A DNA stretch of 64,000 bases from an uncultured Acidimicrobiia bacterium (GCA_963786955.1 CAWBAT010000005.1:650860-714859); one strand, 5' to 3'; numbered from the stretch's first letter, positions 7,879 through 59,329 are shown. The notes: generated by a model from the sequence alone, not told the origin. Numbers and translations are program-made.

Positions 7879-7890
7879 CAGAGCTAATCC

Positions 7891-40096: not shown

Positions 40097-40121
40097 GGCT
40101 CTTGAAACTGGAGAGAAGTCT

Positions 40122-42466: not shown

Positions 42467-42690
42467 AGGAGATTCTCAAGAATCTTATCCTTAAAGAGTA
42501 TTATTGACCTTCAGGTAATTTCCTTGAAGAGTTGAAGTGTATATCTAAAATACAGAAATTGTTTTGGAAACCACCATCTTTTCTCCATCAAGAATACGAT
42601 GGTGGTTTTTTATTCCCAAGTTAAAAAAAGGAGATTGTTTCGCCCCCTTCGATAGAATTCTCTTGGGCCCCCGATGAAACACAAAGATCC

Positions 42691-43044: not shown

Positions 43045-43078
43045 CTTCACGTCTGATGGAGGCTGCTTTCACCGTTTT

Positions 43079-44107: not shown

Positions 44108-44116
44108 TATAGCCCT

Positions 44117-45471
44117 ATGACAACTCCATCCGTCGATGTTCAGCAATCGAGCTGACAACCCATAGTACCCTGCTGAATATCGGTCCTTCTCATCCGGCCA
44201 TGCATGGTGTGATTCGAATCATCACCCAGCTGGAAGGTGAGACGATTGTTAAGGCTGATATTGAAATTGGTTATCTACACCGTGGGTTTGAAAAAAGTTG
44301 TGAACAGGGAGGTTACAACCACCCTATCCCTTATACCGACCGGCTGAACTATGTTTCCCCGCTCATCAACAATTTTGGCTACTGCATGGCGGTGGAAAAG
44401 CTCATGGGAATCCAGGTCACGGAAAGATGCCAGTATATTCGGGTACTCATGAGCGAGATTTCTAGGGTTTGTGACCACCTCACTTGTATCGGGGCCTCGG
44501 CCATGGAACTCGGGGCCATGACTGTTTTCTTGTATATGATCAAGGCGCGTGAATTTCTGTGGGAGCTAGTAGAGTCTGTGACTGGTGCGCGCTTGACGAT
44601 ATCTTATGGGCGAGTCGGAGGCGTGAGCGGGGATCTCCCAGCGGACTTCGGCGCAAACGCCGCTGGCACGTTCAAGAAAGTGCGCGAAGTGCTTATCGAA
44701 GTGGACCGTTTACTCTCGCGCAACCGAATTTTCGTCGACCGCATGCAAGGCACCGGTTTAATCAAGCGGGAAGATGCCATCGCTTACAGTTTCACCGGAC
44801 CGGTAGCACGGTCTGTCGGGATTGACTATGACGTTCGACGGGATCAGCCCTACATGGTCTATGATCAACTGCAGTTTGATGTCCCCCTCGGGTCCATGGG
44901 TGACAATCTGGACCGTTACCATGTACGGATGGAGGAGATGCAACAGAGTCTACGCATCGCAGAACAAGCATTGAATAAAATGCCCAAAGGACCTGTTCAG
45001 GTGGATTCCGAAGGGAAAGTCGTTGAAGCGCATGAAATGGTGGATCGCGCAAAAATGGGCCGAACCCGAGGGATCCGAGATACTTTGGTCCAGCTATCTC
45101 CGAATCTGGAAGGGTTGGAAGGCCCCGCGTATGACGAGGTCACTGCCAAGGAAAAACGGGCCGTACTTCCTGCCAAGAGCGACACATACGGAAACATTGA
45201 AGGGCTCATGAACCATTTCATGCTGATCATGCACGGTCATGGAATCCATCCGCCAAAAGGTGAAGCTTATGCTGCGGTTGAAGCCGCCAACGGTGAGCTG
45301 GGCTTTTATGTTGTCAGTGATGGCTCCGATCGACCGTATCGGGTTCGAGTACGTCCCCCCTGCTTCACTCTGATGGCAGGCCTTCACAAAATGATTGAAG
45401 GGTCTATGATGGCGGACCTCATTCCTACTTTCGGCTCGATCAATATGATTGCCGGAGAACTGGACCGATGA
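44117..45471 (+). CDS. nuoD: NADH-quinone oxidoreductase subunit D (49-kDa subunit); frame break near the N-terminus
   Basis: …LLNIGPSHPAMHGVIRIITQLEGETIVKADIEIGYLHRGFEK…. ATG at 44117 (MTTPSVDVQQSS) is in frame 2 and the body is in frame 1 from about 44150. The table ORF is 44200-45471. Confidence 0.85.
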
Positions 45472-45643
45472 ATCTCGAAGCACATCGTTCTCGATTAGGG
45501 AATTCTTAGGCTTATTTCAGCAGGGGGAAGTTGACACAGGGTCTCCCGTTTGTCAGCCGAAGCTTGGCCGCCCTTAAGGCTTATGGTTTGATTTTAGAAG
45601 TTGAAGGCTGCGCTTAATCTTCAATTCAGAGAATCTCGGAAAC

Positions 45644-46921
45644 ATGGCAGAACTCGCACTTTTAAGAGACGTGCAGGAAAGAAATCTGATGACGGTCGAA
45701 GACTACCGTCAGGTGAATGGTTTCGAGACGCTTCGCAAATCTCTTTTTGAGATGAAACCCGAACAGGTCACCGAGGAAGTCAAGAAGTCGGGATTGAGAG
45801 GCCGCGGAGGTGCAGGTTTTCCAACTGGAATGAAATGGAGCTTTATTCCGAAAAACTTGGATAAGCCTCACTATCTGGTGATTAATGCCGACGAAAGCGA
45901 GCCTGGAACCTGCAAGGACCGCGTGATTATTGAAAAAAACCCTTTCCTGCTGATGGAAGGGATCGCTATCGCGAGCTACGCAATCGGGGCGCACACCTGT
46001 TATCTCTACATCCGGGGAGAATATTACGAACAGGCCATGATCCTCAAAAAGGCCATCGAGGATGCTTATCACTACGGTTACTTCGGAAAGAATATCATGG
46101 GTTCCGGCTTCGATCTGGATGTTTATCTCCATCGCGGTGCGGGGGCCTATATCTGTGGTGAAGAAACCGGCTTGCTGCAATCACTGGAGGGTAAGAAAGG
46201 TTGGCCCCGTTTAAAACCTCCCTTCCCTGCTACCTATGGTCTTTATGGCTGCCCTACAGTCATTAACAATGTAGAAACCATTTCCGCAGTCGTCCCCATT
46301 TTACAACGAGGAGGAGACTGGTACGCCAGCCTTGGTACTCCCAAGAATGGGGGAACGCGACTCTTTTCGGTAAGCGGTCATGTCAAGAAGCCAGGAAATT
46401 ACGAACTGCCCATGGGGACTTCGCTGCGAACCATCATTTACGATATTGCGGGGGGCATTAAAGGCGACAAGAAGTTAAAAGCGGTCATTCCTGGGGGCAG
46501 TTCAGTGCCGGTGCTGACAGCCGAAGAAATTGACGTTAAGATGGATTTCGATTCCGTGGCGGCGATTGGTTCCCTGTTGGGTTCCGGGGGAGTAATCGTC
46601 ATGGACGAAAGCACGTGTATGGTGAAAGCGCTATTGCGGATTTCGAAGTTTTATGACCATGAGTCCTGCGGACAGTGCACACCTTGCCGGGAAGGGACCG
46701 CCTGGTTGAGAAAAACCCTCCAGCGCGTCTTTGACGGGCAGGCTCAGCCTAGGGATCTGGATCAATTGATGGATGTTGCTTTTAATATGATGGGGACAAC
46801 GATCTGCGCGCTTTCAGATGCAGCCGCGATGCCGGTGCGCAGTTTTCTTCAAAAATTTCGCCAAGAATTCGAATATCACGTCCACGAAAAGCATTGTGAT
46901 GTCGCGCGGCGCAAGAGTTAA
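45644..46921 (+). CDS. nuoF: NADH-quinone oxidoreductase subunit F (51-kDa, FMN/NADH binding)
   Basis: …GLRGRGGAGFPTGMKWSF… and …ESCGQCTPCREGTAW… (4Fe-4S N3). 425 aa. Confidence 0.9.
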   Translation: MAELALLRDVQERNLMTVEDYRQVNGFETLRKSLFEMKPEQVTEEVKKSGLRGRGGAGFPTGMKWSFIPKNLDKPHYLVINADESEPGTCKDRVIIEKNPFLLMEGIAIASYAIGAHTCYLYIRGEYYEQAMILKKAIEDAYHYGYFGKNIMGSGFDLDVYLHRGAGAYICGEETGLLQSLEGKKGWPRLKPPFPATYGLYGCPTVINNVETISAVVPILQRGGDWYASLGTPKNGGTRLFSVSGHVKKPGNYELPMGTSLRTIIYDIAGGIKGDKKLKAVIPGGSSVPVLTAEEIDVKMDFDSVAAIGSLLGSGGVIVMDESTCMVKALLRISKFYDHESCGQCTPCREGTAWLRKTLQRVFDGQAQPRDLDQLMDVAFNMMGTTICALSDAAAMPVRSFLQKFRQEFEYHVHEKHCDVARRKS

Positions 46922-46961
46922 CAGCGGTCCACGGATCGCGGCAGAGTAATATCGAGTTCCT

Positions 46962-48587
46962 ATGCCAACGGTTACAATAAATCAACAGTCCATCGTTATT
47001 CCCGAAGGGACCACGATTATTCAAGCAGCCCAACAGTTGGGGATCGAGATCCCTCATTACTGTTATCACCCCGGGCTCAGCACCGCCGGTTCCTGCCGCA
47101 TGTGTCTGGTGGAAATAGAGAAAAATCCCAAGTTACAACCTGCTTGCTATACCCGAATATCGGATGGGATGGTGATTTACACCAATACCGAGAAAGTGAA
47201 GCAGATGGTGAGCGGCGTTCTGGAATTCCTGCTCATTAACCATCCGCTGGACTGTCCTGTGTGCGACCAGGCCGGTGAGTGCTTTTTGCAGGAATATTAT
47301 ATGAAGTTCGGGCTTTACGACAGCCGGATGAACGAAGACAAGATCAAACGGCATAAGGCCCAGGCGATTGGCCCGCATGTCATGCTGGACACCGAGCGGT
47401 GCATTCTATGTTCACGTTGCGTCCGCTTCGTCGAAGAGGTCTCGGATAGCCATGAGATTGGCATATTGAACCGCGGAGGTCGATCAGAAATTCGATTGCT
47501 TCCTGACAAGGCCCTGGACAATAACTATTCCGGAAATGTAGTCGATATTTGCCCGGTAGGGGCGTTGACGGATCGCAATTTCCGCTTCCAATGCAGGGTG
47601 TGGTATCTGGACAAGACCAATTCTGTCTGCAACGGTTGTAGCCGCGGCTGCAATATAACCGTGGAAGCCAATACCGAGCGGCCTCATCATGCTGAGGGCC
47701 GGCGCATTATGCGCTTAAAACCCCGCTACAACCCAGAAGTCAACCAGTGGTGGATCTGCGATATCGGTCGCTATGGTTTCGAATTCATCGACGACCCTTC
47801 ACGCCTGGCAAGTTGTTTGGAGAGGCGAGAGGGTCAGCAAGAATCGATTGAATGGCATGAAGCACTCGGGAAAGCTTCTCAGCGGTTGTCTGATGCATTG
47901 CATCATCAGGGCGACGAATCGGCGGTCGTGATTGCCTCTCCACAATTGACCAATGAAGATTTGTTCCTCATTCGAAGGTTCTTCGGGGAAGACCTGGGAC
48001 TATCGAAGATTGATTATCGCGTACCAGAGCGAAGCTTGTCGGCAGGAGATAACGTTCTCCTTCTCGCGGATCGAAACCCGAATACGCGGGGAGCAGATGC
48101 CATCTTAAAGAGCGGTGGCGGGTTTAGTTTGCACCAGTTGCTACAATCCCCAACGACCCAAAGCTTCAAACTGCTCTATCTCTTCGAACAGGATCTTGTA
48201 AAGAAGCTTGGCGAAGAAGACGCAAAGTCCTTTCTTTCTAGCTTTGAATATGTGATCTATCAGGGGACCAACGAGAATGAGACCTCTCGCCTGGCCGATT
48301 TAGTTTTACCGAGCGCTACGTATGCTGAAGTTGAGGGAACCTTTACCAATTTTGAAGGAAGAGTCCAGAAAATTAACCGAGCCGTGGCACCATGGGGAGA
48401 TTCCCTCCCCACTTGGCAGATAATGGCCAAGCTGGCAGAAACGCATGGAAAAACATACCCTTATGATTGTTCTGAAGACGTATTTGCGGAACTAGCTGAC
48501 CGAGTGCCCGAATTTGAAAATTTGAGCTATTCCAAGATGGGTGATCGAGGGACAAAAACGATCACAACCGGCCAGATGAAAGCGTAG
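46962..48587 (+). CDS. nuoG: NADH-quinone oxidoreductase subunit G, short form (541 aa)
   Basis: 2Fe-2S region CYHPGLSTAGSCRMCLVEI, HPLDCPVCDQAGEC, CILCSRCVRF and CPVGAL. Lacks the long molybdopterin-like C-terminal extension. Confidence 0.85.
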   Translation: MPTVTINQQSIVIPEGTTIIQAAQQLGIEIPHYCYHPGLSTAGSCRMCLVEIEKNPKLQPACYTRISDGMVIYTNTEKVKQMVSGVLEFLLINHPLDCPVCDQAGECFLQEYYMKFGLYDSRMNEDKIKRHKAQAIGPHVMLDTERCILCSRCVRFVEEVSDSHEIGILNRGGRSEIRLLPDKALDNNYSGNVVDICPVGALTDRNFRFQCRVWYLDKTNSVCNGCSRGCNITVEANTERPHHAEGRRIMRLKPRYNPEVNQWWICDIGRYGFEFIDDPSRLASCLERREGQQESIEWHEALGKASQRLSDALHHQGDESAVVIASPQLTNEDLFLIRRFFGEDLGLSKIDYRVPERSLSAGDNVLLLADRNPNTRGADAILKSGGGFSLHQLLQSPTTQSFKLLYLFEQDLVKKLGEEDAKSFLSSFEYVIYQGTNENETSRLADLVLPSATYAEVEGTFTNFEGRVQKINRAVAPWGDSLPTWQIMAKLAETHGKTYPYDCSEDVFAELADRVPEFENLSYSKMGDRGTKTITTGQMKA

Positions 48588-48700
48588 AGATGACTACGAG
48601 GAACCTCTTCTTTTCTGACTTTTCGTTGACAGATTTTGCTCCGAACCTTTTTCCCCACCCGAGATAGACGGCCTTTTTTGACGGAGACTGCTAAATAATT

Positions 48701-49783
48701 ATGCTGGCAACTCTTGGAATCGAACTCGCAAAGGTTTTGGTCGTATTAATTGGCGTCCTAAATCTGGCGGCTATTTTGACCTGGATGGAGCGAAAGCAAA
48801 GTGCCGTCATGCAAGACCGCATTGGGGCAAACCGGGCCTCGATTTTTGGCTTTCGCTTGTTTGGACTTTTTCAAGTTCTCGCAGACGGATTAAAGATGTT
48901 TACCAAAGAAGAATTTGTTCCCGAAAAAGCCCATCGTTTCATTCACACCCTGGCACCCTTTCTGGCTGCCTTCTTTGCGCTGATAGGCTTTGCCGTCATC
49001 CCGTTCGGAAATGTGGTCACGTTGTTTGGCCGCGAGATCAATCTTCAGATCATTGATTTGAATGTAGGCGTTTTATTTATCTTTGCTGCCATGTCTCTCG
49101 GGATTTATGGGGTTGTGTTGGCTGGATGGTCCTCCAACAATAATTATGCGTTTCTTGGCGGAATGCGCGGTAGTTCCCAAATGTTTTCTTACGAGATAAC
49201 CATTGGGGCAACGATTCTGGGAGTACTCATGATCTTCGAGTCCATGAGCTTGCAAGATATTGTGAGAGGCCAGGGGCAGTTGCTCTGGGGATTTCTCCCT
49301 AAGTGGGGATTTGTTGTTCAGCCCATTGGATGCATTTTGTTTCTAGTTGCCGGAATAGCCGAAACCAAGCGTGTCCCTTTTGATCTGCCCGAAGGTGAAT
49401 CTGAAATTATCGGTTATTTCGTCGAATACAGTAGCATGAAGTTTGGTCTGTTCATGCTTACTGACTTCGTTGAAACGGTTCTTATTGCTGCCTTGGTCAC
49501 CACCCTATTCTTTGGTGGCTGGCAAGTGCCGTATTTGTACCAGAACGGCTTTTCTTTCCCCGGCGGGATGACGGTTGAAATTTCGCAAATCTGGGTCGCT
49601 CTCTTCCAGGTTCTGTCTTACGGAATTAAGGTCTTTTTCTTTTGTTGGCTTCTCTTATTAATCCGGTGGACCTTGCCGCGCTTTCGTTATGACCAGCTCA
49701 TGCGGCTTGGCTGGCAGATGATTTTTCCGCTCTCGATTCTGAACCTGCTGGTCACGGGCGCGGTAATCCTCCTCCTTCAATAA
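48701..49783 (+). CDS. nuoH: NADH-quinone oxidoreductase subunit H (ND1)
   Basis: 360 aa, multi-TM, with …AAILTWMERKQSAVMQDRIGANRA…, …IPFDLPEGESEIIGYFVEYSSMKFGLFML… and …RWTLPRFRYDQLM… (NuoH hallmarks). Confidence 0.9.
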   Translation: MLATLGIELAKVLVVLIGVLNLAAILTWMERKQSAVMQDRIGANRASIFGFRLFGLFQVLADGLKMFTKEEFVPEKAHRFIHTLAPFLAAFFALIGFAVIPFGNVVTLFGREINLQIIDLNVGVLFIFAAMSLGIYGVVLAGWSSNNNYAFLGGMRGSSQMFSYEITIGATILGVLMIFESMSLQDIVRGQGQLLWGFLPKWGFVVQPIGCILFLVAGIAETKRVPFDLPEGESEIIGYFVEYSSMKFGLFMLTDFVETVLIAALVTTLFFGGWQVPYLYQNGFSFPGGMTVEISQIWVALFQVLSYGIKVFFFCWLLLLIRWTLPRFRYDQLMRLGWQMIFPLSILNLLVTGAVILLLQ

Positions 49784-49800
49784 TTTCAAAGAATGGACTT

Positions 49801-50292
49801 ATGGAACGACGCGAATTGACTTTTGTCGAACGATTCTACCTGGTAGAAGTTTTCAAGGGGCTTTGGCTCACCGGACGGCACTTCTTCTTGAATTTGAGCA
49901 AACATATCAAGACACAACTCGGGCTCAATACTCTGGAAAAAGGCGCGGTGACTTTTCAGTACCCTGAAGAGCGGCGCCCCTTTTCCCCGCGCTATCGGAG
50001 CCGTCATCGGTTAACCCAGCGTGAAAACGGGAGTCCCCGTTGTGTTGCCTGCATGATGTGTGAAACAGCATGCCCAGCCCGTTGTATCTACATCGTGGCC
50101 GGCGAGCATCCAGATCCCAACGTCGAGAAATATCCCATCCGTTTTGATATCGACCTTGGCGTCTGCATTTTTTGCGGTTTTTGCGTAGAGGCTTGCCCGG
50201 AGGACGCGATTCGTATGGATACTGGAATCGTCGAGATTGCCGCCTACAGCCGAAAAGAAATGATTTATCATATTGAAGACCTACTGCAGTAG
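49801..50292 (+). CDS. nuoI: NADH-quinone oxidoreductase subunit I (2x[4Fe-4S] ferredoxin, TYKY)
   Basis: CVACMMCETACP and CIFCGFCVEACP motifs. 163 aa. Confidence 0.9.
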   Translation: MERRELTFVERFYLVEVFKGLWLTGRHFFLNLSKHIKTQLGLNTLEKGAVTFQYPEERRPFSPRYRSRHRLTQRENGSPRCVACMMCETACPARCIYIVAGEHPDPNVEKYPIRFDIDLGVCIFCGFCVEACPEDAIRMDTGIVEIAAYSRKEMIYHIEDLLQ

Positions 50293-50434
50293 ATCATCCG
50301 ATCGTCCTTTCCATTTTCCAGGCGTATCCGCCTCTAGCCTTCGCGGGTGGCGAAGACATGGGGCTTCAGTGGCAACGTGGCACATTCATAATTCCGATTG
50401 GAAATATTCATCAGACGTACAACATCTTCGTTCC

Positions 50435-50815
50435 ATGCAAAACACCATGAGACTCCAGTTCGGATTAGCAATGCTGGCTTGTTGTGTTCTAGACGGGTGT
50501 CATACAACCCAGCCACCGGTCACGAGAGAAGCCCTTGTAGGAAGCTATGTCTACAAATCTGAAGACCCTGAAGGCAAGGCGACAGATCACGAGTGGGACC
50601 GTCTGACTTTACAAGCAGATGGGAAGTATGACCTCGTGGAAGAAGGACCAACTAAGCCCAGATCTGAAACTATAGGAAGGTGGACAAGTTGGGCCGGAGT
50701 CAAAGGCACAGAAGTCGTACTGGATAATGCGGGCTATCCGATTCAGATAAAGGGAAATGAAATTAGGCTCTTGATCGATAACGATGTTGGGATATGGTAC
50801 GCGAAATCAAAATGA
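50435..50815 (+). CDS. small lipoprotein of unknown function
   Basis: MRLQFGLAMLACCVLDGC lipobox. The table ORF 50273-50815 has a non-native upstream extension. Confidence 0.4.
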   Translation: MQNTMRLQFGLAMLACCVLDGCHTTQPPVTREALVGSYVYKSEDPEGKATDHEWDRLTLQADGKYDLVEEGPTKPRSETIGRWTSWAGVKGTEVVLDNAGYPIQIKGNEIRLLIDNDVGIWYAKSK

Positions 50816-50883
50816 AGCCCGCCGCTGTCAACGCTCATTTAGAATTGACCCCTTTTTAATCATCAGAATTGACCACCCTGGCT

Positions 50884-51000
50884 GGTGGCGAAGACATGCG
50901 CCCTTTGCATGTCTTCGAAGAAGCTGACTCATTAAAGAGAAATGAGAAAAACAAAACAGTGCCGCACTCAAGAGATTGAATTCTCGCCTTTCCTTAAAGC
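50884..51000 (+). repeat. hairpin-repeat family, copy a (GGTGGCGAAGACATGCGCCCTTTGCATGTCTTC + AT-rich tail), directly 5' of RHS cassette A
   Basis: 10-bp perfect inverted repeat GAAGACATGC/GCATGTCTTC at 50890-50916, then …aaagagaaatgaga…gattgaattctcgcc…cttggcatctatcc. Related copies are in the next features. Confidence 0.7.
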
Positions 51001-52548
51001 TTGGCATCTATCCTACTAAATAGAATAGTCTGTCATTCATTCCAATTCGCTCTTCCTTTTTCTTGTCGCAGAGAAAGGCGTAACCGGGCATCAGTCGCTG
51101 CCACTCGGAACAATGGGCAGATTACCGAATTTATCGATTCGGTTGCCGGGCAGACAGTCGATTACACCTACGACAGTTTGAATCGTTTGATAGCAGCCAG
51201 CACGACCGGGTCCCAGTGGGGTTTGAGCTTCAGCTATGATGGTTTTGGAAACCGTTTGAGCCAAACGGTAACGAAGGGATCTGCTCCGGCTAGCTCGCTC
51301 GCGATTAATCCAGCCACCAACCGGATCAGCTCGACCGGCTACGTTTACGATGCGAATGGCAACTTGACGACCATGCCGAGTGGCACTTCAAGTCTCACGC
51401 TCAGTTATGATGTGGAGAATCGGCTGGCACAAGCCAGTACCACATCAATGACCAATCGTTTCGGATATGATCTGGACAATCGTCAGGTCTATACAAACAC
51501 ACTTGGTTCGACAGTTGAATCCATTATCTTTTACGGAGCCTTTGGGGAACGATTGAAGGAGTACACTTTGCAATGGGGCAACTATCAAGCGATCCATTGG
51601 AATTTATACTTTGATGGGAAGCTGATTTGGCAGGATTACAAAATCACACCCCCTGCGAACGGCGGCATCCCAGGTTTTCAGGACCGACTGGGCTCGCGAA
51701 TGGCTTATTTTCTGGCGTATTATCCCTTCGGCGAGGGGCAGGTCCCAGGCCGGGATTTTGCCACTTATTTGAGCACACCCTTTGGTATCGATTATGCGCA
51801 CAACCGCTACTATGCTAGCAACTTGGGACGGTTCACCACGCCCGATCCGTATGGAGGAAGCGCCAATCTAGGAGATTCACAAAGCTGGAACCGGTATGCG
51901 TATGTAAACAACGATCCTGTGAACAGGAATGATCCATCGGGGCTCGATTATTATTACTATGGTCCCAGAGCAGGAAATGATTTCTTTGACTGGGAGTGGC
52001 TCTGCAGGTTCTTTGGCAACTGTTCGGGTGGGAATCCAGGTGGCCGAGGCGAAGGTCCGACTGTTGGTCCAGGAGGCCCTCGAGGTGTAGATCCTTACAC
52101 AGAACCGTCACAGACAGTACCCGCAAACAACACGGTCTCGTCATCCCCTTGTAACTCGGCTGGAAACGCGCTAAGTCCACAGCAATATCAGGCGGTGGGA
52201 TACGCTGCGCGAGCCTCGTGGCTGTACGGTCCGGAAGTCGGAGTTTGGTCGAATGCGGGTGCGTTGGCGATGTTCAAGCGTGGGCTGCCGCTAGATGCGC
52301 AGGTACTCTATGGCGGGTCACCAGCTTACGCGAATTACGCGTACGGGGTTTACGCGGCTGCAGCAGGGTTACCATTGAGCGTTGCATTTGCGGGTGCAAA
52401 TGCTTATGCAAGTGTTTTTAGCTCTTACGAAAGAAAACCTCCGTATGACGAGAATTATAAATCGACGCCTGCCGAGAATATCCAAAATATTACCAAAGGG
52501 TACAACGACCAGAAAAACGGAACTCTATGCTCAATACCAAATCAATGA
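51001..52548 (+). CDS. RHS/YD-repeat C-terminal cassette A: YD repeats, RHS repeat-associated core and a C-terminal polymorphic-toxin domain of unknown type (orphan-like; no N-terminal domain)
   Basis: YD motifs (YTYDSLNRL, FSYDGFGNRL, YVYDANGNL, LSYDVENRL, FGYDLDNRQ). RHS core …NRYYASNLGRFTTPDPYGG…YAYVNNDPVNRNDPSGL, followed by a G/P-rich linker and a 200-aa unique C-terminal domain. Begins at a TTG inside the repeat element, with no RBS. Confidence 0.75.
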   Translation: MASILLNRIVCHSFQFALPFSCRRERRNRASVAATRNNGQITEFIDSVAGQTVDYTYDSLNRLIAASTTGSQWGLSFSYDGFGNRLSQTVTKGSAPASSLAINPATNRISSTGYVYDANGNLTTMPSGTSSLTLSYDVENRLAQASTTSMTNRFGYDLDNRQVYTNTLGSTVESIIFYGAFGERLKEYTLQWGNYQAIHWNLYFDGKLIWQDYKITPPANGGIPGFQDRLGSRMAYFLAYYPFGEGQVPGRDFATYLSTPFGIDYAHNRYYASNLGRFTTPDPYGGSANLGDSQSWNRYAYVNNDPVNRNDPSGLDYYYYGPRAGNDFFDWEWLCRFFGNCSGGNPGGRGEGPTVGPGGPRGVDPYTEPSQTVPANNTVSSSPCNSAGNALSPQQYQAVGYAARASWLYGPEVGVWSNAGALAMFKRGLPLDAQVLYGGSPAYANYAYGVYAAAAGLPLSVAFAGANAYASVFSSYERKPPYDENYKSTPAENIQNITKGYNDQKNGTLCSIPNQ

Positions 52549-53027
52549 TCGAGATTGCTTCAGAAGATGCAATTGTAAACATTTCAAGGCAGGGTCGCCT
52601 TGTTCAAGTTATGGTGAATCTGATTGTTATCGTGGGGCTGTGTATTTTTGGACTAGGCTGTAATGAGGGCAGTATAACTTGGTCGACTGAAGCATATTCT
52701 CCTGATGGGGTCTGGCATGCGACTGCCCATACTCGCCAATGGGGAGGCCCCGGGACAGCTTTTGTAGAGACGACCGTGTACCTTGATCAAAGCAGGGTGA
52801 AAGGGCCTCCGACCCTTATACTAGCCTTTACTCATCAGTATTCTAGTAGAATGTATCTGAAATTGGAATGGATCACAGCAAAGCACTTGGACGTCACTTA
52901 TGGTTATGGTGAGAGCGGAAGACCTGGCGATCATGTTGATCTAATCTTCCAAGCAGTCAAGAACAATGGTGTTGAAATTACGGCGAGAGAGATTCCGAGT
53001 GGAACAAAAAAGGCCACAACTCAATAA
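52527..53027 (+). CDS. putative cognate immunity protein for cassette A (membrane-anchored, unknown fold)
   Basis: 166 aa overlapping the toxin stop. One TM helix (LVQVMVNLIVIVGLCIFGLGC). Its position immediately 3' of an RHS-CT is the only evidence for function. Confidence 0.4.
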   Translation: MLNTKSMIEIASEDAIVNISRQGRLVQVMVNLIVIVGLCIFGLGCNEGSITWSTEAYSPDGVWHATAHTRQWGGPGTAFVETTVYLDQSRVKGPPTLILAFTHQYSSRMYLKLEWITAKHLDVTYGYGESGRPGDHVDLIFQAVKNNGVEITAREIPSGTKKATTQ

Positions 53028-53344
53028 CGCCATTGCCAAAAACTCTAGTCACACCCAACGACAAGGCCGTGGGGGTGTTGGGGCCAGCCCTCAAAAATCA
53101 AATTAGTTCAGTACACCCGGAAAAAGATCGGTGACCAGACCAAAGCCCTGTACGAATCCTTGTGTGAGACAGTACATCTTAGCTTGGGGCCACGAAACTG
53201 TCCCTGCAGCAAAATACAGGATGACACTCTCTTACCTCTTCACGGACCAACACACTAGATTTGGATGTTTAGCTCGCGCCCGAGCACAAAAATTCACTAG
53301 CCACAAGGCTTCCTCGGGATCATTTCTGCTTGCATAAATCCCTT

Positions 53345-53440
53345 TCTAGATCAGGTCTTCGCGGCATTTGGCTCATGAAAGAGAAATGAGATAAAGGTGA
53401 ACGGTGCCACACTCAAATAGGTTGAATCTTTACTGTAGGT
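53345..53440 (+). repeat. hairpin-repeat family, degenerate partial copy (tail half only)
   Basis: gtcttcgcggcatttggctcatgaaagagaaatgagataaaggtgaacggtgccacactcaaataggttgaatc aligns with the tail of copies a and b. Confidence 0.5.
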
Positions 53441-53631
53441 CCTTTGATCAACATTTAGGGGACATCTGTCTCCCGTTAATTTCTCCTAGTTATTACTCAA
53501 GCTATTGTAAGTTGCAATCCCCTGCTGCCCAGACAGGGCGTTATAGTCTCTAATCATGGCTTGGTCAACTTGTCCATGCTGGTTCACTTGCTGTTGCTCG
53601 ATTCCAAGTTGTCGGCGCCGTTGGAGCGCGC

Positions 53632-53754
53632 GTGGCGAAGACATGCGCTCTTTGCATGTCTTCGAATCAGTTGACTCATGAAAGAGAAATGTGGGAAAAG
53701 AAGAATCGGGCATTGCCGCTCTTAAAAGTTTGAATTCTCGCCTTTCCTTAAAGC
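53632..53754 (+). repeat. hairpin-repeat family, copy b
   Basis: gtggcgaagacatgcgctctttgcatgtcttcgaatcagttgactcatgaaagagaaatg…ttgaattctcgcctttccttaaagcttggcatctatcc. The tail is near-identical to copy a. Confidence 0.7.
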
Positions 53755-54300
53755 TTGGCATCTATCCTACTAAATAGAATAGTCTGTCATTCATTCCAAT
53801 TCGCTCTTCCTTTTTCTTGTCGCAGAGAAAGGCGTAACCGGCAATCAGCCGCTGCCACTCAAGACAATGGGCAGATTACCGAATTTATCGATTCGGTTGC
53901 CGGGCAGACAGTCGATTACACCTACGACAGTTTGAATCGTTTGATAGCGGCCAGCACGACCGGGTCCCAGTGGGGTTTGAGCTTCAGCTATGACGGATTT
54001 GGAAACCGTTTGAGCCAAACGGTAACGAAGGGATCTGCTCCGGCTAGCTCGCTCGCGATTAATCCAGCTACCAACCGGATCAGCTCGACCGGCTACGGGT
54101 ACGATGCGAATGGCAACTTGACGACCATGCCGAGTGGCACTTCAAGCCTCACGCTCAGTTATGATGTGGAGAATCGGCTGGCACAGGCCAGTACCACATC
54201 AATGACCAATCGTTTCGGATATGATCTGGACAATCGTCAGGTCTATACCAACACAACTGGTTCGACAGTTGAATCCATTATCTTTTACGGAGCCTTTGGG
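53755..54300 (+). pseudogene. RHS/YD-repeat cassette B, truncated after the YD region (…FYGAFGER) by a hairpin-repeat copy
   Basis: About 95% identical to cassette A over 170 codons, then runs into repeat copy c (…GRGWRRHAPFAFLRRS is the translated repeat). No RHS core and no CT. Confidence 0.6.
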
Positions 54301-54360
54301 GAACGGGACTGGGGTCACATCTTTCCTTTTTCCAAAAACGAGCGTGGAAGGGGCCGCGGG

Positions 54361-54480
54361 TGGCGAAGACATGCGCCCTTTGCATTTCTTCGAAGAAGCT
54401 GCATCATAAAAGAGGAATGAGAGAACAGAAAAAGCTGCCCCACTAAAGAGATTGAAATCTCGCCTTAAAGCATGGCATCT
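54361..54480 (+). repeat. hairpin-repeat family, copy c (second stem half diverged: gcatttcttc)
   Basis: ggtggcgaagacatgcgccctttgcatttcttcgaagaagctgcatcataaaagaggaatgagagaacagaaaaagctgcc…. Duplicated exactly at 58088. Confidence 0.7.
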
Positions 54481-54489
54481 ATCCTAATT

Positions 54490-55995
54490 AATTGAATACT
54501 CTGTCATTCATTCCATTTCGCTTTTTCTTATGCTTGTCTCTGAGAATGGCATAACCGGCCATCATCTGTTGCCACTCAAAACAACGGGCAGATCAGCCTG
54601 ACGATTGACTCGGTATCAGGAGAGACTATTGATTACACCTACGACAGCCTGAACCGGCTGATCACGAGCGCTACCCAGGGACCGCAGTGGGGCCTATCAT
54701 TCAGCTATGATGGATTCGGGAACCGCTTGAGTCAGACGGTGACGAAGGGATCCGGGCCGAGTAATAGTTTGATCGTCAACGCGGCCACGAATCGAATCGC
54801 TTCGTCCTATTATAGCTACGATTCCAATGGGAATCTTGTCACCATGCCTTACGGGACCGGCTATACAACGCTGAGCTACGACATCGAGAATCGGCTGATC
54901 CAGGCCACAAATACAAACGGGACAGAAACATATGCTTACGGGCCGGATAACCGGAGGGTGTATCAGAAGATGGCCAGTGGGACGGAATTGGTGTTCTTTT
55001 ACGGGGTCAATGGGGATCGATTGAGGACGTATCAGCTTCAGTGGATGAACGGCTTTTCTGTGACGAACACGAACATCTATTTTGCCGGAAGATTGATCTC
55101 TGCGAACAACGGACCCATCCGCCTTGACCGATTAGGCTCAGTTCGAAACTGGTCGCGCTACTACCCGTTTGGAGAAGAGCAAGGGTCTGGGTATATTCCA
55201 GAAAAGTTCGCCACCTACTACCGCGACACCTCGACCAGTCTCGACTACGCCATGAACCGGTACTACGGAAGCACCATGGGACGGTTCACGACGCCCGATC
55301 CGTATGGCGGAAGTGCTAATCTAGAGAATCCTCAGAGTTGGAATCGGTATGCGTATGTCAACAATGATCCAGTCAATAACAACGACCCTACAGGGCTCTT
55401 TCTCCCTGGAACCCCTTTTGATGATTCATTGAGTTATTTCGAGTTGTGGTGGGTATATAACAACCCTATGAGTCGCCAATTTGCATTTCCCGGAGGCGGA
55501 TCTCAGCCACCTCCACGTCTTTTCAAAGATCTTCTTGTATATGGTGCTGCCAACTTAATTTACAAGAAAAAATGTGGAGACTTCTTGGTGAGCGTAGGGC
55601 AGAAGGCCTTTTTGGATGTAGTCGGCAAGTCGAGTGTTAATGAATTAAATTCTGCCGAGCGAACATACTATGATGCCATCACTACGACCAACCTCAAGGG
55701 ACGGCTTCAGGGTGCGTCATTCTATGATAAGCATCGCCCAGAAGAGGATCAGTATAAGAACATCGTTCGTGCTCGCTCTGACTACGGTATCGATGGAACC
55801 GGTCAGTCTATATCTTTCTTCGACGCGTTCATTGGACAAAGTACCACAGAACAGTCCCAAATAGTAGTACATGAGAGTATGCATTTGATCAACGCCGTAA
55901 GCGACTCCAATCTAGCAAGGGGCGCCGGCGTCTATAAGGGGGATAAAAGTGCATCGGAAGATTTTCAAACAGAACTTAAAAAGCATTGCAAATAA
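54490..55995 (+). CDS. RHS/YD-repeat C-terminal cassette C (diverged core, about 70% identical to A) carrying an HExxH zinc-metallopeptidase-like toxin domain
   Basis: YD repeats and RHS core (…NRYYGSTMGRFTTPDPYGG…YAYVNNDPVNNNDPTGL), then a unique CT containing VVHESMHLIN (HExxH). The table ORF is 54727-55995; homology to A and B extends upstream to about 54560. Confidence 0.7.
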
Positions 55996-56413
55996 ACTTT
56001 TCTTATTTTCCAGCTTCGTCATATTGGCATTCGCAGTATCCGTACAAGGTCAGGTTGAAGAACCTTTGAGGGTTTCTTACTTCATTTCACCTGAATATCC
56101 GCGTCTAGCGAGACAGGCCATGATGTCAGGCGACGTCGTGCTGACAGTGACAGTTGATGCCACAGGCACACCTAAAGATATCGTTTTCAAGGCTCCGTAC
56201 CCATTGCTGGGCGAATATGCCAAGGAAGCTGTTTCCAAATGGCGATTTAATCCTGTTTCTCCTCCTTCTACACGTAAGGGATTCGTTTTCATCCACTACA
56301 GTTTTTCCGGCACGACTCGTGACTGTGACCCCAGCACAGTAGTGGCTGCCGACTTAGAAAATCTGCGGGTAATTGTAACTGTCGATCCGCGCCGTCCTTC
56401 TGACTCGGAATGA
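55949..56413 (+). CDS. TonB C-terminal-domain-like secreted protein; possible immunity protein for cassette C
   Basis: Signal peptide, then PEYPRLARQAMMSGDVVLTVTVDATGTPKDIVFKAPYPLLGEYAKEAVSKWRFNPV (TonB_C-type fold signature). Overlaps the toxin gene end by 47 nt. Confidence 0.5.
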   Translation: MHRKIFKQNLKSIANKLFLFSSFVILAFAVSVQGQVEEPLRVSYFISPEYPRLARQAMMSGDVVLTVTVDATGTPKDIVFKAPYPLLGEYAKEAVSKWRFNPVSPPSTRKGFVFIHYSFSGTTRDCDPSTVVAADLENLRVIVTVDPRRPSDSE

Positions 56414-56606
56414 CCGAGAGGCGTTTCCAGCATCAAGGAGATTTCACAAGAGTCAAAAGAGATTTGAAGTCAATTTCGGGGTTAATTATTCAGCATCTTA
56501 TATAGTAAAGCTCAGTGCAATCGAGCCATTTTGGAGAATTAAGGATGACAACTACTTTTATCTTATTTTTTCTGCGATTACTACTCCTTGGCGGTACCAA
56601 AGCGAG

Positions 56607-56760
56607 GTCGGACCAAGCAAGATCCTTGTTGGATGCGGAACGGGTGTGATTTTAGAGGTATTTTTCGGCCTTAGAAATTCTTTTTTGGGTGCAAAAACGG
56701 GCTTTTAACAAAATGTCTCTGCGCGGAGCAGCATAAGCTTAAGAGAGGCTCACACGGCGG
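56607..56760 (+). repeat. second repeat family R2, copy 1 (ggtcggaccaagcaagatccttg…ggccttagaa…gggcttttaacaaaatgtctctgcgcggagcagcataagc)
   Basis: About 150-bp segment, about 90% identical to 57030-57165. Each copy is followed immediately by a hairpin-repeat copy. Confidence 0.65.
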
Positions 56761-56765
56761 GTAGC

Positions 56766-56880
56766 GAAGATATGCGTCGTTTGCATGTCTTTGAAGAAGC
56801 TGACTCATGACAGAAAAATGAGAGAACAGAAAAGGCTGCCACACTCAAGAGATTGAATTTCCGCCGTAAAGCTTGCCATC
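56766..56880 (+). repeat. hairpin-repeat family, copy d (degenerate stem gaagatatgcg…gcatgtctttg)
   Basis: gtagcgaagatatgcgtcgtttgcatgtctttgaagaagctgactcatgacagaaaaatgagagaacagaaaaggctgccacactcaagagattgaatttccgcc…. Followed by a cassette C-type 5' fragment that R2 interrupts at about 57020. Confidence 0.6.
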
Positions 56881-57029
56881 TTCCCTAATTGATTGAATAC
56901 ACTGTCATTCATACCAGTTCTCTTCTCCTTATTCTTGGCTCTGAGAAAGTTAAAACGAGCAATCAGCCGCTGCCACTCAAAACAACGGGCAGATCAGCCA
57001 ATCGATTGACTCGGTGCACAAGCGGGGTC

Positions 57030-57165
57030 GGACCAAGCAAGATCCTTGCTGGATGCGGAAGAGGTGTACTTTTAGAGGTATTTTTCGGCCTTAGAAGTCC
57101 TTTTTGGGCCGCTAAAACGGGCTTTTAACAAAATGTCTCTGCGCGGAGCAGCATAAGCCGGGTGG
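57030..57165 (+). repeat. repeat family R2, copy 2
   Basis: See 56607-56760. Confidence 0.65.
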
Positions 57166-57240
57166 CGAAGACATGCGTCCTTTGCATGTCTTCGAGGCAG
57201 TTGGTTCATGAAAGAGAAATGAGAGGATAGAGAATAGCAC
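57165..57240 (+). repeat. hairpin-repeat family, copy e
   Basis: gggtggcgaagacatgcgtcctttgcatgtcttcgaggcagttggttcatgaaagagaaatgagagg… with a perfect 10-bp stem. Confidence 0.65.
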
Positions 57241-57337
57241 GGCACATGAAAGATATAATCTTTGCAAAAAGTTTCATGATCAATGTTCAGCGGTAGAATG
57301 TTCACCCGTTACTATTGTTTTGCTTTACCAATTGAAT

Positions 57338-57371
57338 CGAAGACATCGCAAAACGATGTCTTCGCCACCCA
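57338..57371 (-). repeat. hairpin-repeat family, solo inverted copy (cgaagacatcg-caaaa-cgatgtcttcg-ccaccc)
   Basis: Reverse-complement reads gggtggcgaagacatcg-tttt-gcgatgtcttcg, i.e. the 5' hairpin module alone in the opposite orientation. Confidence 0.55.
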
Positions 57372-57661
57372 CGAAAAGTGGGGTCGGGACGAACAGGTCG
57401 TTCCTGACGGAGCTAAGAAATCTTCAACGACACTCCGTTCTATAAACAGGTCGCCGCGCTGCGGCTTCGCCTAGAATGACAACAGCCGCGGACCCACATA
57501 TCGGGTCCGCGCTACGCTAGGGAAAAGCCACAGAGTCAAAATCAGCTCTGCGATTCCCACTACGTGCTGGCTCCGTAGGAGCCTCCGGTCTATAGTAACC
57601 AGGAGCCACTGGTCTTGAAAGCTCCAGAGGAGCGGCCTGTAGGCTCAGATCCAACTTCTCA

Positions 57662-58150
57662 ATGCATTTCCCTAAAAGCAAGAGCACGACCGGGTCCCAG
57701 TGGGGTTTGAGCTTCAGCTATGATGGTTTTGGAAACCGTTTGAGCCAAACGGTAACGAAGGGATCTGCTCCGGCTAGCTCGCTCGCGATTAATCCAGCTA
57801 CCAACCGGATCAGCTCGACCGGCTACGGGTACGATGCGAATGGCAACTTGACGACCATGCCGAGTGGCACTTCAAGCCTCACGCTCAGTTATGATGTGGA
57901 GAATCGGCTGGCACAGGCCAGTACCACATCAATGACCAATCGTTTCGGATATGATCTGGACAATCGTCAGGTCTATACCAACACAACTGGTTCGACAGTT
58001 GAATCCATTATCTTTTACGGAGCCTTTGGGGAACGGGACTGGGGTCACATCTTTCCTTTTTCCAAAAACGAGCGTGGAAGGGGCCGCGGGTGGCGAAGAC
58101 ATGCGCCCTTTGCATTTCTTCGAAGAAGCTGCATCATAAAAGAGGAATGA
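57662..58150 (+). pseudogene. duplicate of truncated cassette B (near-identical to 53880-54420), 5'-truncated
   Basis: ORF 57662-58150 is residue-for-residue identical to the tail of ORF 53755-54420, including the run into repeat copy g at 58088. Confidence 0.6.
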
Positions 58151-58219
58151 GAGAACAGAAAAAGCTGCCCCACTAAAGAGATTGAAATCTCGCCTTAAAG
58201 CATGGCATCTATCCTAATT

Positions 58220-58663
58220 AATTGAATACTCTGTCATTCATTCCATTTCGCTTTTTCTTATGCTTGTCTCTGAGAATGGCATAACCGGCCATCATCTGTT
58301 GCCACTCAAAACAACGGGCAGATCAGCCTGACGATTGACTCGGTATCAGGAGAGACTATTGATTACACCTACGACAGCCTGAACCGGCTGATCACGAGCG
58401 CTACCCAGGGACCGCAGTGGGGCCTATCATTCAGCTATGATGGATTCGGGAACCGCTTGAGTCAGACGGTGACGAAGGGATCCGGGCCGAGCAACAGTTT
58501 GAGCGTCAACACTGCCACGAATCGAATCAAAATGAGCGGGTATTCCTACTTTCCCAATGGAAATCTAGTTCCGCCAATCCCCTTCGCCAGTACTGACGAT
58601 CAAGTTACCAACTTCGCCCACGCAAGACTAGAAGGTCACCTGCACAAAGCGGAACAAACCTAA
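58220..58663 (+). pseudogene. duplicate 5' fragment of cassette C (matches 54490-54780), diverging and terminating after about 60 codons
   Basis: 58200-58510 is about identical to 54470-54780. After …TKGSGPSNSL the sequence diverges and hits a stop at 58663. Confidence 0.5.
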
Positions 58664-59329
58664 TCCAATGAGTCCGACCGAGAGTAGACGGAAAAGCTGT
58701 TGGGAATTAGGATGCGCGCTGAGCCGCCTCAAAATGGCGAATGTCAGAAAGCTCACTAAAGCCATCACAATCGCCAAACCCAATTGAAAAGACAGTAATG
58801 AAAGAATCATCCCTTTTCTGGGATAGCCAATGCTCCGAGCCAGATCTGAATAGCTCAGTCCATAGATAATGCCCAGAAAACCCGCAATAGCCCCTCGATA
58901 TCGGATCTTCTTGATGAGCACATTTTCAGCTGCAACATAGGCGACGCTCAATGGAATTGCTGAATGGACAAATCGAACCGACAAGATTGGCCCGTGCCAG
59001 GTGTCGTAGGAGAATGCGGCCGCTTGACCCAAAAAGGACATCGCCACGACGATCCCTAGGCCTCCCCAAGTGGGTTCTATCAAGATCAATCCCAGGAGGA
59101 AGGCCGCAGATTCGGGAGTCGAAAAGTACTCTTTGATTGAATAAGTGCATGATCGCCATGCCAGCTTGAAGTAGCTTCTCGTTTCCCGTCGCAGTTCGAC
59201 TCGGCCCTCCGGCGTCTCCAAGTTGAAATAGCGTTGCTCCTCAACACCATCGTAATGAATGCGGGCAAGGTCCCAATGCCCTGAATCAGTGAGCGAATGC
59301 AGTGTTACCCGAAAAACAACATCCTCCAA
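58628..59329 (-). CDS. polytopic membrane protein of unknown function
   Basis: 233 aa with about 5 TM helices in the C-terminal two-thirds. No motif recognised. Confidence 0.4.
   Translation of the reverse strand: MEDVVFRVTLHSLTDSGHWDLARIHYDGVEEQRYFNLETPEGRVELRRETRSYFKLAWRSCTYSIKEYFSTPESAAFLLGLILIEPTWGGLGIVVAMSFLGQAAAFSYDTWHGPILSVRFVHSAIPLSVAYVAAENVLIKKIRYRGAIAGFLGIIYGLSYSDLARSIGYPRKGMILSLLSFQLGLAIVMALVSFLTFAILRRLSAHPNSQQLFRLLSVGLIGLGLFRFVQVTF

What the first reader, a model, noticed from the sequence alone, without database searches (positions are those of the whole stretch)
50345..58210. Novel roughly 120-bp hairpin repeat (GGTGGCGAAGACATGCGCCCTTTGCATGTCTTC…) in nine copies marking every cassette boundary, with a companion roughly 150-bp repeat R2
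Full-length copies lie at 50884, 53632, 54361, 56766, 57165 and 58088. Partial copies lie at 50345 and 53345, and a solo inverted 5' module lies at 57338. Each full copy starts with a 10-bp perfect inverted repeat (GAAGACATGC / GCATGTCTTC, 7-nt loop). An AT-rich tail follows (…tcatgaaagagaaatgaga…gattgaattctcgcc…cttggcatctatcc) that runs directly into the cassette's first codons. All three frames are closed within it. R2 (56607-56760, 57030-57165) precedes two of the copies and in one place interrupts a cassette 5' end (about 57020). The element is not an integron attC (no R''/L''-L'/R' architecture) and not CRISPR. Possible roles are a recombination hotspot for cassette shuffling, a terminator/insulator between cassettes, or a small mobile (MITE-like) element.
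Basis: seen in the sequence. Interest (0 to 1): 0.5.

Follow-up and report, generated by a model that had tools for sequence, protein, structure and literature searches.

The report
REP hairpin repeats heading Rhs cassettes
The repeated hairpin belongs to a well-known class of selfish bacterial repeats (REP elements, spread by a RAYT transposase); in this Acidobacteriota genome one copy became fused to the front of silent Rhs toxin-gene cassettes and is copied with them, so it is an ordinary kind of element in an unusual place.

Summary
The repeats are real: eight hairpin copies plus one 3'-half copy lie in window 50346-58122, and none lies elsewhere in the 64 kb. The hairpin is not a new kind of element. 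It has a GTGG/GTAG head followed by an 11-12 bp palindrome. The same hairpin is scattered through Acidobacteriota genomes and at least 120 soil or peat metagenome contigs, next to unrelated genes and with compensatory stem changes. In 43 of 158 outside copies it directly flanks a RAYT gene (REP-associated tyrosine transposase) or a RAYT fragment, head pointing outward. It is therefore a REP.

The "tail" is the spacer of a roughly 210-nt REP doublet. An intact doublet lies at 57161-57369. In the cassette-linked copies the right REP is replaced, always at the same nucleotide, by the last part of an rhs core. This produces a 212-223 nt non-coding leader in front of each orphan Rhs cassette. The same leader-Rhs junction, and R2, recur in a second genome (L156) that also carries what looks like the main rhs gene.

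Within the homologous part, the REP arm is better conserved than the neighbouring spacer and coding sequence. I found no support for a terminator, a promoter, a translation start, an attC site or cassette gain and loss bounded by REPs. Verdict: a new member of a known kind, of modest interest.

The parts
50346..50359 (+). REP remnant: head plus 5' arm only (GGTGGCGAAGACAT). It is orthologous to the left REP of the first doublet in L136. Homology with L136 ends exactly at 50359.
50884..51099 (+). Unit U1 leader. REP hairpin at 50884-50917, then spacer ('tail') up to the fixed junction with rhs sequence at 51100.
51100..53027 (+). Orphan cassette 1. rhs core end (YD repeats, DPVNRNDPSGL motif) plus C-terminal domain (to 52548), and an overlapping small ORF 52527-53027 (putative immunity, no Pfam hit). 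No credible in-frame start codon.
53352..53491 (+). Partial element: 3' arm of a REP (..GTCTTCG) plus doublet-type spacer. The 5' arm and loop are missing.
53631..53853 (+). Unit U2 leader (REP at 53631-53664 plus spacer).
53854..54306 (+). rhs fragment, 97% identical to U1, truncated at 54306.
54307..54358 (+). 52-nt spacer ('pre') between the truncated rhs fragment and the next REP. Repeated at 58037-58088 and also present in L136.
54359..54570 (+). Unit U3 leader (REP at 54359-54392 with one stem mismatch, plus spacer).
54571..56507 (+). Orphan cassette 2. rhs core end plus C-terminal domain (to 55995), a TonB_C-domain ORF 55949-56413 (putative immunity) and downstream non-coding DNA. It is 89% identical over 1941 nt to L156 8064-10002, the 3' end of the apparent main rhs there (its 96%-identical TonB_C ORF follows within the same stretch).
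56592..56738 (+). R2a, the companion repeat. Also present in L156 12915-13067 (93%), there too just 5' of a REP plus leader.
56760..56971 (+). Unit U4 leader (REP at 56760-56793 with GTAG head and weakened stem, plus spacer).
56972..57011 (+). rhs start of U4, cut off by R2b.
57012..57158 (+). R2b, 90% identical to R2a.
57161..57369 (.). Intact REP doublet (REPIN/BIME-like). Left REP at 57161-57194 (+), spacer, right REP at 57338-57369 (-) with a compensated stem variant. As ssDNA it folds into one long hairpin (-47.9 kcal/mol, z -7.7).
57373..57650 (+). R3, a roughly 280-nt element with about 22-nt terminal inverted repeats (MITE-like). It follows the doublet here and follows the same element in L136 (x2), L015, L042 and L132.
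57680..58036 (+). rhs fragment, 99% identical to 53953-54306.
58089..58300 (+). Unit U5 leader (REP at 58089-58122 plus spacer), identical to U3 over the 259 nt compared.
58301..58620 (+). Terminal rhs remnant. From 58448 onward it is orthologous (94%) to the rhs remnant beside hupE in L136.

Best explanation
The hairpin is a REP (repetitive extragenic palindrome). It has a GTGG/GTAG head and an 11-12 bp palindrome, and it belongs to a family maintained by REP-associated tyrosine transposases (RAYTs, HUH/Y1 enzymes that act on the folded single strand) in Acidobacteriota.

The 'tail' is the internal spacer of a roughly 210-nt REP doublet (REPIN/BIME-like). One intact doublet survives at 57161-57369.

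Inferred history: in an ancestor, one doublet lost its right REP and became joined at a single nucleotide position to a 5'-truncated rhs core. The resulting 212-223 nt non-coding leader (left REP plus spacer) now heads every orphan rhs-CT/immunity cassette and cassette fragment.

Inferred mechanism: the copies at cassette boundaries were propagated with the cassettes by homologous recombination or segmental duplication within the leader-plus-core homology block, not by fresh transposition. The REP arm is kept more uniform than its surroundings by selection or gene conversion.

The leader supplies no start codon, so the cassettes are silent orphans. Its most likely present-day roles are as part of the homology block that lets cassettes be exchanged and, secondarily, as an RNA or DNA hairpin separating cassettes.

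Shown: REP identity, RAYT association elsewhere, the doublet origin of the tail, and the fixed junction in two genomes. Inferred: the order of events, and any current function.
For: 1. Head plus palindrome: GGTGG (GGTAG at 56760) followed by a 12-bp stem.

2. Dispersal. The hairpin occurs in three Acidobacteriota-type MAGs beside unrelated genes such as MreB, Pta and CorA. It is depleted from long open frames: 36 copies inside them against 91 expected.

3. Covariation. At the stem position left free by the search pattern there are 139 C:G, 22 A:T and 0 mismatched pairs. At the first inner pair there are CG 63, GC 22, TA 13 and TG 8 among 112 unique copies.

4. RAYT association. Genes next to the hairpin hit Pfam Y1_Tnp and the NCBIfam equivalog NF047646 'REP-associated tyrosine transposase' at 88-104 bits against a cutoff of 80. 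In L103 and L093 the gene is flanked by two inverted hairpins. Of 158 outside copies, 43 abut a RAYT gene or fragment: 21 at the 5' flank, 18 at the 3' flank and 4 beside other fragments.

5. The tail is the doublet spacer. Alignment A5 shows the Rhs-linked leaders are homologous to the stand-alone doublets of the window, L136, L132, L042 and L015 up to about 10-25 nt before the right REP. The doublet folds as one long hairpin. A spacer-only profile finds this family only directly after REPs.

6. Fixed junction. Homology of the orphans to what appears to be the main rhs of L156 starts at the same GCCACTCAAAACAACGG in U1-U5 and in both L156 orphans.

7. No conserved in-frame start codon in the leaders.

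8. Conservation gradient. For U1 versus U3 identity is REP 97%, spacer 78%, rhs 64-66%.

9. The orthologous locus L136 (96% identical flanks) carries only doublets, R3 and rhs scraps between nuoI and hupE.
Against: - No RAYT gene lies in the 64-kb window, and the rest of the source genome could not be read. Current REP mobility in this organism is therefore untested.
- Within the window the hairpin occurs only at this locus, which is unusual for a dispersed REP.
- More distant relatives have no copy in 66 kb.
- The closest MAG has only about ten exact copies, so the family is of modest abundance.
- In that MAG (L026) the RAYT is immediately flanked by a different GTAG-type REP, with our hairpin lying further out. 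The A:T stem subtype found in the window is linked to a RAYT only through its C:G sister subtype.
- The leader and REP being more conserved than the adjacent coding sequence hints at a function or at an active homogenising process. Passive co-duplication does not explain this.
Confidence: 0.75

Rival explanations
1. Exapted RNA or DNA hairpin acting as an insulator. When transcribed from upstream, the REP stem-loop ends or stabilises the upstream cassette's mRNA and keeps downstream orphans silent, as REPs do in some E. coli operons. This is compatible with the REP identity.
For: All boundary copies lie on the same strand as the rhs ORFs and downstream of the preceding small ORF. The REP arm is more conserved than the flanking spacer and coding DNA. 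The hairpin is stable. REPs are reported to affect mRNA decay and 3'UTR regulation (abstracts listed).
Against: No T-run follows the hairpin, and no terminator-like site is found at any copy. Distances from the preceding stop codon vary from about 70 to about 600 nt. No expression data exist. No conserved structure beyond the REP appears in ten aligned leaders.
Confidence: 0.25
2. Cassette recombination site. The REP head or hairpin is the site at which a RAYT (or another enzyme acting on folded single strands) excises and integrates Rhs toxin/immunity cassettes, in an integron-like manner.
For: The left edge of homology of the repeated unit coincides with the REP head in at least six different upstream contexts. 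Two copies are broken inside the hairpin, and homology with L136 stops inside one. The same cassette (CT2 plus TonB_C, 89-96% identical) sits in arrays at different chromosomal sites in two genomes. All boundary REPs share one orientation.
Against: The roughly 2.9-kb unit that differs between L156 and the window is bounded about 85 nt upstream of a REP on one side and at the start of R2 on the other, not at REP heads. The breaks at 50359 and 53352 lie inside the stem, not at the head where E. coli RAYT is reported to cleave (PMC3733652). No RAYT or tyrosine recombinase is present in the window. The leader-rhs junction is fixed, as expected for ordinary homologous exchange.
Confidence: 0.08
3. 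Promoter or 5' UTR that allows independent expression of each orphan cassette.
For: A weak sigma-70-like match (TTGGCA-17-AATAGT) lies in the U1 and U2 leaders. The leader is conserved between genomes.
Against: Promoter-like sites are fewer than expected by chance (4 against 8.8), and the match is absent from U3 and U4. There is no conserved in-frame start codon or ribosome-binding site in any leader.
Confidence: 0.05
4. Purely local segmental duplication of an arbitrary sequence, with no mobile-element identity.
For: Within the window all copies lie in 8 kb. 54359 and 58089 are identical duplicates, and homology runs on into rhs.
Against: The hairpin is dispersed in many genomes and contexts and flanks RAYT genes.
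Confidence: 0.02

Closest known systems
REP elements with their RAYT transposase (REPtrons; Nunvar 2010 PMC2817692, Di Nocera 2013 PMC3733652)
   Same: GT(A/G)G-type head followed by a palindrome. Compensatory stem changes. Extragenic and dispersed. Occurs as singletons, inverted pairs and arrays. RAYT genes flanked by two inverted copies.
   Different: The family comes from Acidobacteriota, whereas Nunvar 2010 found none outside gamma-proteobacteria. Di Nocera 2013 grouped acidobacterial RAYT-like genes as 'TIRYT', flanked by inverted repeats, and I could not check whether those repeats are this hairpin. The stem is long (11-12 bp). The abundance seen is modest. Many sampled copies (27%) sit beside RAYT genes or RAYT pseudogene fragments.
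REPIN / BIME (Bertels & Rainey 2011 PMC3116915; E. coli BIMEs)
   Same: [quoted passage not shown] The two REPs of the pair are of different subtypes, like the Y and Z units in BIMEs.
   Different: The spacer is long (about 140-170 nt) and is itself conserved across genomes. This spacer-bearing subfamily was found in the window and five outside loci. Four of these six settings show Rhs-derived sequence nearby (window, L136, L156, L015). L042 shows none, and L132 is too short to tell.
Orphan rhs-CT/immunity cassette arrays downstream of a main rhs gene
   Same: 5'-truncated core end with a PxxxxDPxGL-type motif, a variable C-terminal domain and a small downstream ORF. No start codon. The same cassette is at the 3' end of the apparent main rhs in one genome (L156) and in an orphan position in another (this window).
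   Different: Every orphan begins at the same nucleotide and carries the same REP-derived non-coding leader. No main rhs gene lies within the 64-kb window.
Integron attC sites
   Same: A hairpin-forming repeat between promoterless cassettes, all in one orientation.
   Different: No R''/L''-L'/R' architecture, no integrase, a constant rather than cassette-specific sequence, and unit gain or loss not bounded by the repeat.

Membership tests
REP (repetitive extragenic palindrome) | Conserved GT(A/G)G head at one end of the unit | tested here: met
   GGTGG precedes the stem in 7 of the 8 window copies that keep the 5' arm (53631 reads CGTGG), and GGTAG occurs at 56760. The collection searches either found the head as flank (the true family hits) or required it in the pattern. 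The three bases before the head are mostly GCG, CCG or CGG.
REP (repetitive extragenic palindrome) | Short imperfect palindrome kept by complementary changes | tested here: met
   12-bp stem with 5-nt loop, z -5 to -7. 139 C:G, 22 A:T and 0 mismatched at the free stem position. Three Watson-Crick pair types at the first inner pair.
REP (repetitive extragenic palindrome) | RAYT gene flanked by two copies in inverted orientation | tested here: met
   L103 (1866+ / RAYT 1933-2511 / 2522-2555-) and L093. NF047646 scores 88-104 bits against a cutoff of 80. Met in metagenome relatives carrying the C:G and long-stem subtypes, not in the window's own genome.
REP (repetitive extragenic palindrome) | Many dispersed extragenic copies within one genome | not testable with these tools
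   The source genome (1.76-Mb contig on record) is not readable. The window itself holds copies only at 50.3-58.1 kb. The closest MAG (CAWEPG01) has 10 exact copies on 7 contigs. An extragenic bias is seen in the pooled loci.
REPIN / BIME | Two inverted REPs plus a spacer folding into a long hairpin, recurring as a unit | tested here: met
   57161-57369 gives -47.9 kcal/mol, z -7.7. The same unit occurs twice in L136. Other inverted pairs occur in L028, L007, L008, L036 and L085.
Orphan rhs-CT cassette | rhs core end with a PxxxxDPxGL-type motif, a variable C-terminus, a small downstream ORF and no initiation signals | tested here: met
   RHS_repeat hits. DPVNRNDPSGL and DPVNNNDPTGL read in the sequence. 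No in-frame start codon. The cassette is homologous to the 3' end of the apparent main rhs in L156. Toxin and immunity functions are not shown.
Integron attC | R''-L''...L'-R' imperfect palindrome with extrahelical bases, and an adjacent IntI integrase | tested here: not met
   The hairpin is a simple perfect stem. No tyrosine-recombinase-like sequence in the window (tblastn, E<=1, only chance-level hits). Neighbouring genes are nuo, HupE and inositol monophosphatase.
Intrinsic terminator | GC-rich stem followed by a T-run | tested here: not met
   No terminator-like site at any copy. The sequence after the stem is GAAGAAGCTGAC.
Known structured RNA (Rfam) | Match to a curated covariance model | tested here: not met
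   Only one chance-level hit (E 0.14, below the gathering score) in 50000-59000.

The most novel reading that the evidence does not exclude
The REP-derived leader is not a passive passenger but the portable 5' handle of a cassette-exchange system. Resident REP doublets would act as landing pads, and the leader's REP (through a RAYT acting on the folded single strand, or through REP-promoted recombination) would let Rhs toxin/immunity cassettes be captured, reshuffled and moved between chromosomal sites. This would be a hairpin-based analogue of integron cassettes for polymorphic toxins.
Probability: 0.08. Interest if true: 0.75.

Novelty: new member of a known kind. Interest (0 to 1): 0.3.

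Why it matters
The result assigns an apparently novel repeat to a known system (REP/RAYT) and adds a well-supported REP family, with its cognate RAYTs, in Acidobacteriota, a phylum in which such elements have barely been described.

The one unusual point is that a REP-doublet fragment has become a fixed, well-conserved leader of orphan Rhs toxin cassettes in at least two genomes. If that leader contributes to cassette exchange or silencing, it would link two fields that have been studied separately: REP/RAYT biology and the diversification of polymorphic toxins. If it does not, it is simply a clear example of selfish repeats hitch-hiking inside a recombining toxin island.

Tried and rejected
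- Rfam search of 50-59 kb found nothing.
- A metagenome scan specific for hairpin plus tail gave 0 hits because the pattern was too strict. The broader hairpin pattern then worked.
- I suspected the tail was a decayed RAYT 3' end, based on an apparent match to the ...SWRFYHL coding region. Neither blastx nor an nhmmer profile of RAYT 3' flanks supports this.
- A borderline tblastn hit of RAYT to the 'pre' spacer (54281-54349, minus strand, E 0.004) runs partly over Rhs-derived sequence. I treat it as chance.
- I tested whether 50360-53352 is a clean insertion splitting one ancestral hairpin into 50346 and 53352. The tail at 53352 is only about 75% identical to the L136 doublet, against 96% for the flanks, so this is not a simple insertion.
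- Promoter and terminator scans gave no enrichment.
- No conserved RNA structure appears in the leader beyond the REP. R3 shows no covariation.
- Look-ups of the source contig through window proteins were either not on record or returned only a 2.2-kb Logan contig.
- Loci of more distant relatives downstream of nuoI hold no REP and no Rhs.
- A search for other proteins that start in the leader found only ordinary Rhs segments.
- The hairpin sequence string was not found in the paper library.

Full report
**Observation.** The repeats are present as described. The 14-mer GGTGGCGAAGACAT (up to 2 mismatches) occurs nine times in 64 kb against 0.35 expected. Eight of these lie between 50346 and 58102. 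The ninth (62335, minus strand) has no palindrome, sits inside a ThuA ORF and is a chance match. Full hairpins start at 50884, 53631, 54359, 56760, 57161 and 58089 on the + strand. A complete but inverted hairpin lies at 57369->57338. 50346-50359 is a 5' arm only, and 53352-53491 is a 3' arm plus tail. As single-stranded DNA the unit forms a 12-bp stem with a 5-nt loop (-12.6 kcal/mol, z -5 to -7). The copies at 54359/58089 and 56760 carry stem defects. R2 (56592-56738 and 57012-57158, 90% identical) is real. Rfam has no match in the region.

**The hairpin is a REP.** It consists of a GTGG head (GTAG at 56760) followed directly by a palindrome. This is the published definition of REPs: a GT(A/G)G head, palindrome-forming arms and a non-complementary middle (Nunvar 2010, PMC2817692; Di Nocera 2013, PMC3733652).

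- An exact-pattern scan of species-representative genomes did not find the source genome. It did find the same headed hairpin in three MAGs: CAWEPG01 (10 copies on 7 contigs), CAYZVR01 and QHZO01. These copies have different loops and flanks and lie beside unrelated genes such as MreB, Pta and CorA.
- The search pattern allowed four base combinations at one stem position. Only the two complementary ones occur (139 C:G, 22 A:T, 0 mismatched). The first unconstrained inner pair is CG, GC, TA or TG in 106 of 112 unique copies.
- Copies are depleted from long open frames: 36 inside them against 91 expected.

**RAYT association.** Many copies are followed about 35 nt later by a gene beginning MPRQRHFYGLNHLH.... 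Intact examples hit Pfam Y1_Tnp and the NCBIfam equivalog 'REP-associated tyrosine transposase' above its cutoff, at 88-104 bits against 80. In L103 and L093 the gene is bracketed by two inverted hairpins with heads outward, the canonical REPtron arrangement. Overall, 43 of 158 outside copies abut a RAYT gene or fragment: 21 at the 5' flank, 18 at the 3' flank and 4 beside other fragments. The long-stem subtype found in the window (ACATGYG...) flanks RAYTs in L103, L093, L147 and L080. The window's A:T variant differs from those by one compensated base pair. No RAYT lies in the window itself.

**The tail is the spacer of a REP doublet.** The unit at 57161-57369 has a left REP, a spacer of about 140 nt and an inverted right REP of a different stem subtype. 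It folds into one long hairpin (-47.9 kcal/mol, z -7.7). The same unit occurs twice in L136, and without the right REP in L132, L042 and L015. Alignment of these with the cassette-linked copies shows homology through about 200 columns, ending 10-25 nt before the position of the right REP. A profile of the spacer alone finds it only directly after REPs: seven times in the window, twice each in L136 and L156, and once each in L132, L015 and L042. It is absent from the other roughly 150 loci. The leader has no conserved RNA structure beyond the REP. It is not significantly similar to RAYT coding sequence.

**Fusion to rhs at one fixed point.** L156, from a related organism and a different chromosomal context, carries a run of contiguous broken ORFs spanning about 5.4 kb (3488-8867). 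I read this as a frameshifted full-length main rhs gene, although only the last two ORFs have weak RHS or YD-shell hits. Its 3' end plus a TonB_C ORF is 89% identical over 1941 nt to window 54571-56507 (96% for the TonB_C ORF). It is followed by a REP-plus-leader-plus-rhs-CT orphan, and then by R2 plus REP plus leader plus an rhs start. Homology between that rhs and all orphans, in both genomes, begins at the same GCCACTCAAAACAACGG: window positions 51100, 53854, 54571, 56972 and 58301. The leader has no conserved in-frame start codon, so these are typical silent orphan cassettes. The two complete cassettes (U1, U3) carry DPxxxxDPxGL-type motifs and variable C-termini.

**Comparative frame.** The window belongs to an uncultured Acidobacteriota lineage. 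NuoH is 78-83% identical to proteins from MAGs labelled Acidobacteria, Acidobacteriota or Terriglobia. L136 is the orthologous locus of a close relative. Its nuoG-nuoI region is 96% identical up to window 50359, exactly inside the first REP. Identity resumes at 58448 (94%) inside the terminal rhs remnant next to hupE. Between these points L136 has only 1.4 kb, made of two [REP doublet + R3 + short rhs scrap] units, whereas the window has 8.1 kb. More distant relatives have other genes after nuoI and no REP in 66 kb.

**How the copies came to mark cassette boundaries.** The junction with rhs is identical in all units, so it arose once. The leader then spread with the cassettes. 53953-54614 and 57683-58344 form a 99-100% identical duplication, and U1 and U2 are 97% identical in their rhs part. 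Two features are not fully explained by passive co-duplication:

- The REP arm (84-100% identity) and the spacer (68-86%) are better conserved than the adjacent coding sequence. For U1 versus U3 the values are 97%, 78% and 64-66%.
- The left edge of homology coincides with the REP head in at least six different upstream contexts.

Both features fit selection or gene conversion acting on the REP. They also fit recombination between cassette leaders and REP doublets already inserted at various sites. Two further results argue against a REP-bounded, integron-like excision mechanism. The 2.9-kb unit that distinguishes L156 from the window is not bounded by REP heads. The two broken copies are cut inside the stem rather than at the head.

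**Roles tested and not supported.**
- Intrinsic terminator: no T-run and no predicted site at any copy.
- Promoter: 4 promoter-like sites against 8.8 expected, and the weak match is absent from U3 and U4.
- Translation start: none conserved.
- attC site: no integrase, and a simple perfect stem.

**Verdict.** This is a REP/RAYT family member, a known kind of element. A doublet fragment of it has been captured as the conserved leader of orphan Rhs cassettes. It is a new member of a known kind and of modest interest. The residual novel reading, that the leader is a cassette-exchange handle, is unlikely but testable.

Noticed in passing
window 57373-57650; also L136 697-1037 and 1492-1824 (minus strand), L015 3549-3793, L042 about 660-1010, L132 about 885-1000: R3 is a roughly 280-340 nt element with about 22-nt terminal inverted repeats (ACAGGTCGCTCCTGACGGAGCT ... 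AGCTCCAGAGGAGCGGCCTGT) and internal sub-repeats. It looks MITE-like and shows no covariation. It always follows the spacer-bearing REP element. In the window, L136 and L015 it is followed by an rhs scrap beginning near GNRLSQTVTKGS.
   Followed up: partly
window 56592-56738 and 57012-57158; L156 12915-13067: R2 is shared with a second genome (93% identical). In all three copies it lies 2-21 nt upstream of a REP head. Its origin is unknown, and it was not found in any other fetched locus.
   Followed up: partly
L026 2080-2120 and 2784-2822; also L048 and L092: A second REP family of GTAG type (GGTAGCCACGGAGA...TCTCCGTGGGC) immediately flanks the RAYT of MAG CAWEPG01, with the GGTGGCGAAGACAT hairpins lying further out. 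The two REP families co-occur as composite units in several metagenome loci.
   Followed up: no
L092 2927-3141: Three tandem REP copies at 91-nt spacing, forming a BIME-like array of this family.
   Followed up: no
window 55949-56413; L156 9444-9908: A 154-aa ORF with a TonB C-terminal domain occupies the position of an immunity gene after an rhs C-terminal domain and is 96% identical between the two genomes. This is an unusual domain for an Rhs immunity protein.
   Followed up: no
L157 1248-5950 and 7978-8650: Five consecutive tyrosine-recombinase (Phage_integrase) genes lie a few kb upstream of an rhs fragment. That fragment is cut by an inverted pair of variant REPs (GGTGGCGCCTACATGC... and GGTGGCGCATGCATGCC...).
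   Followed up: no
window 50360-50883: DNA found in the window but not in L136 starts inside the broken REP at 50359/50360. It encodes a small lipoprotein-like ORF (ATG at 50449, MRLQFGLAMLACCVLDGC...), possibly the immunity gene of a lost cassette. It has no Pfam hit.
   Followed up: no
window 40000-50292: The nuo cluster here ends at nuoI with no nuoJ-N downstream. The same is seen in relatives L136 and L151-L154, so the complex I operon is split in this lineage.
   Followed up: no
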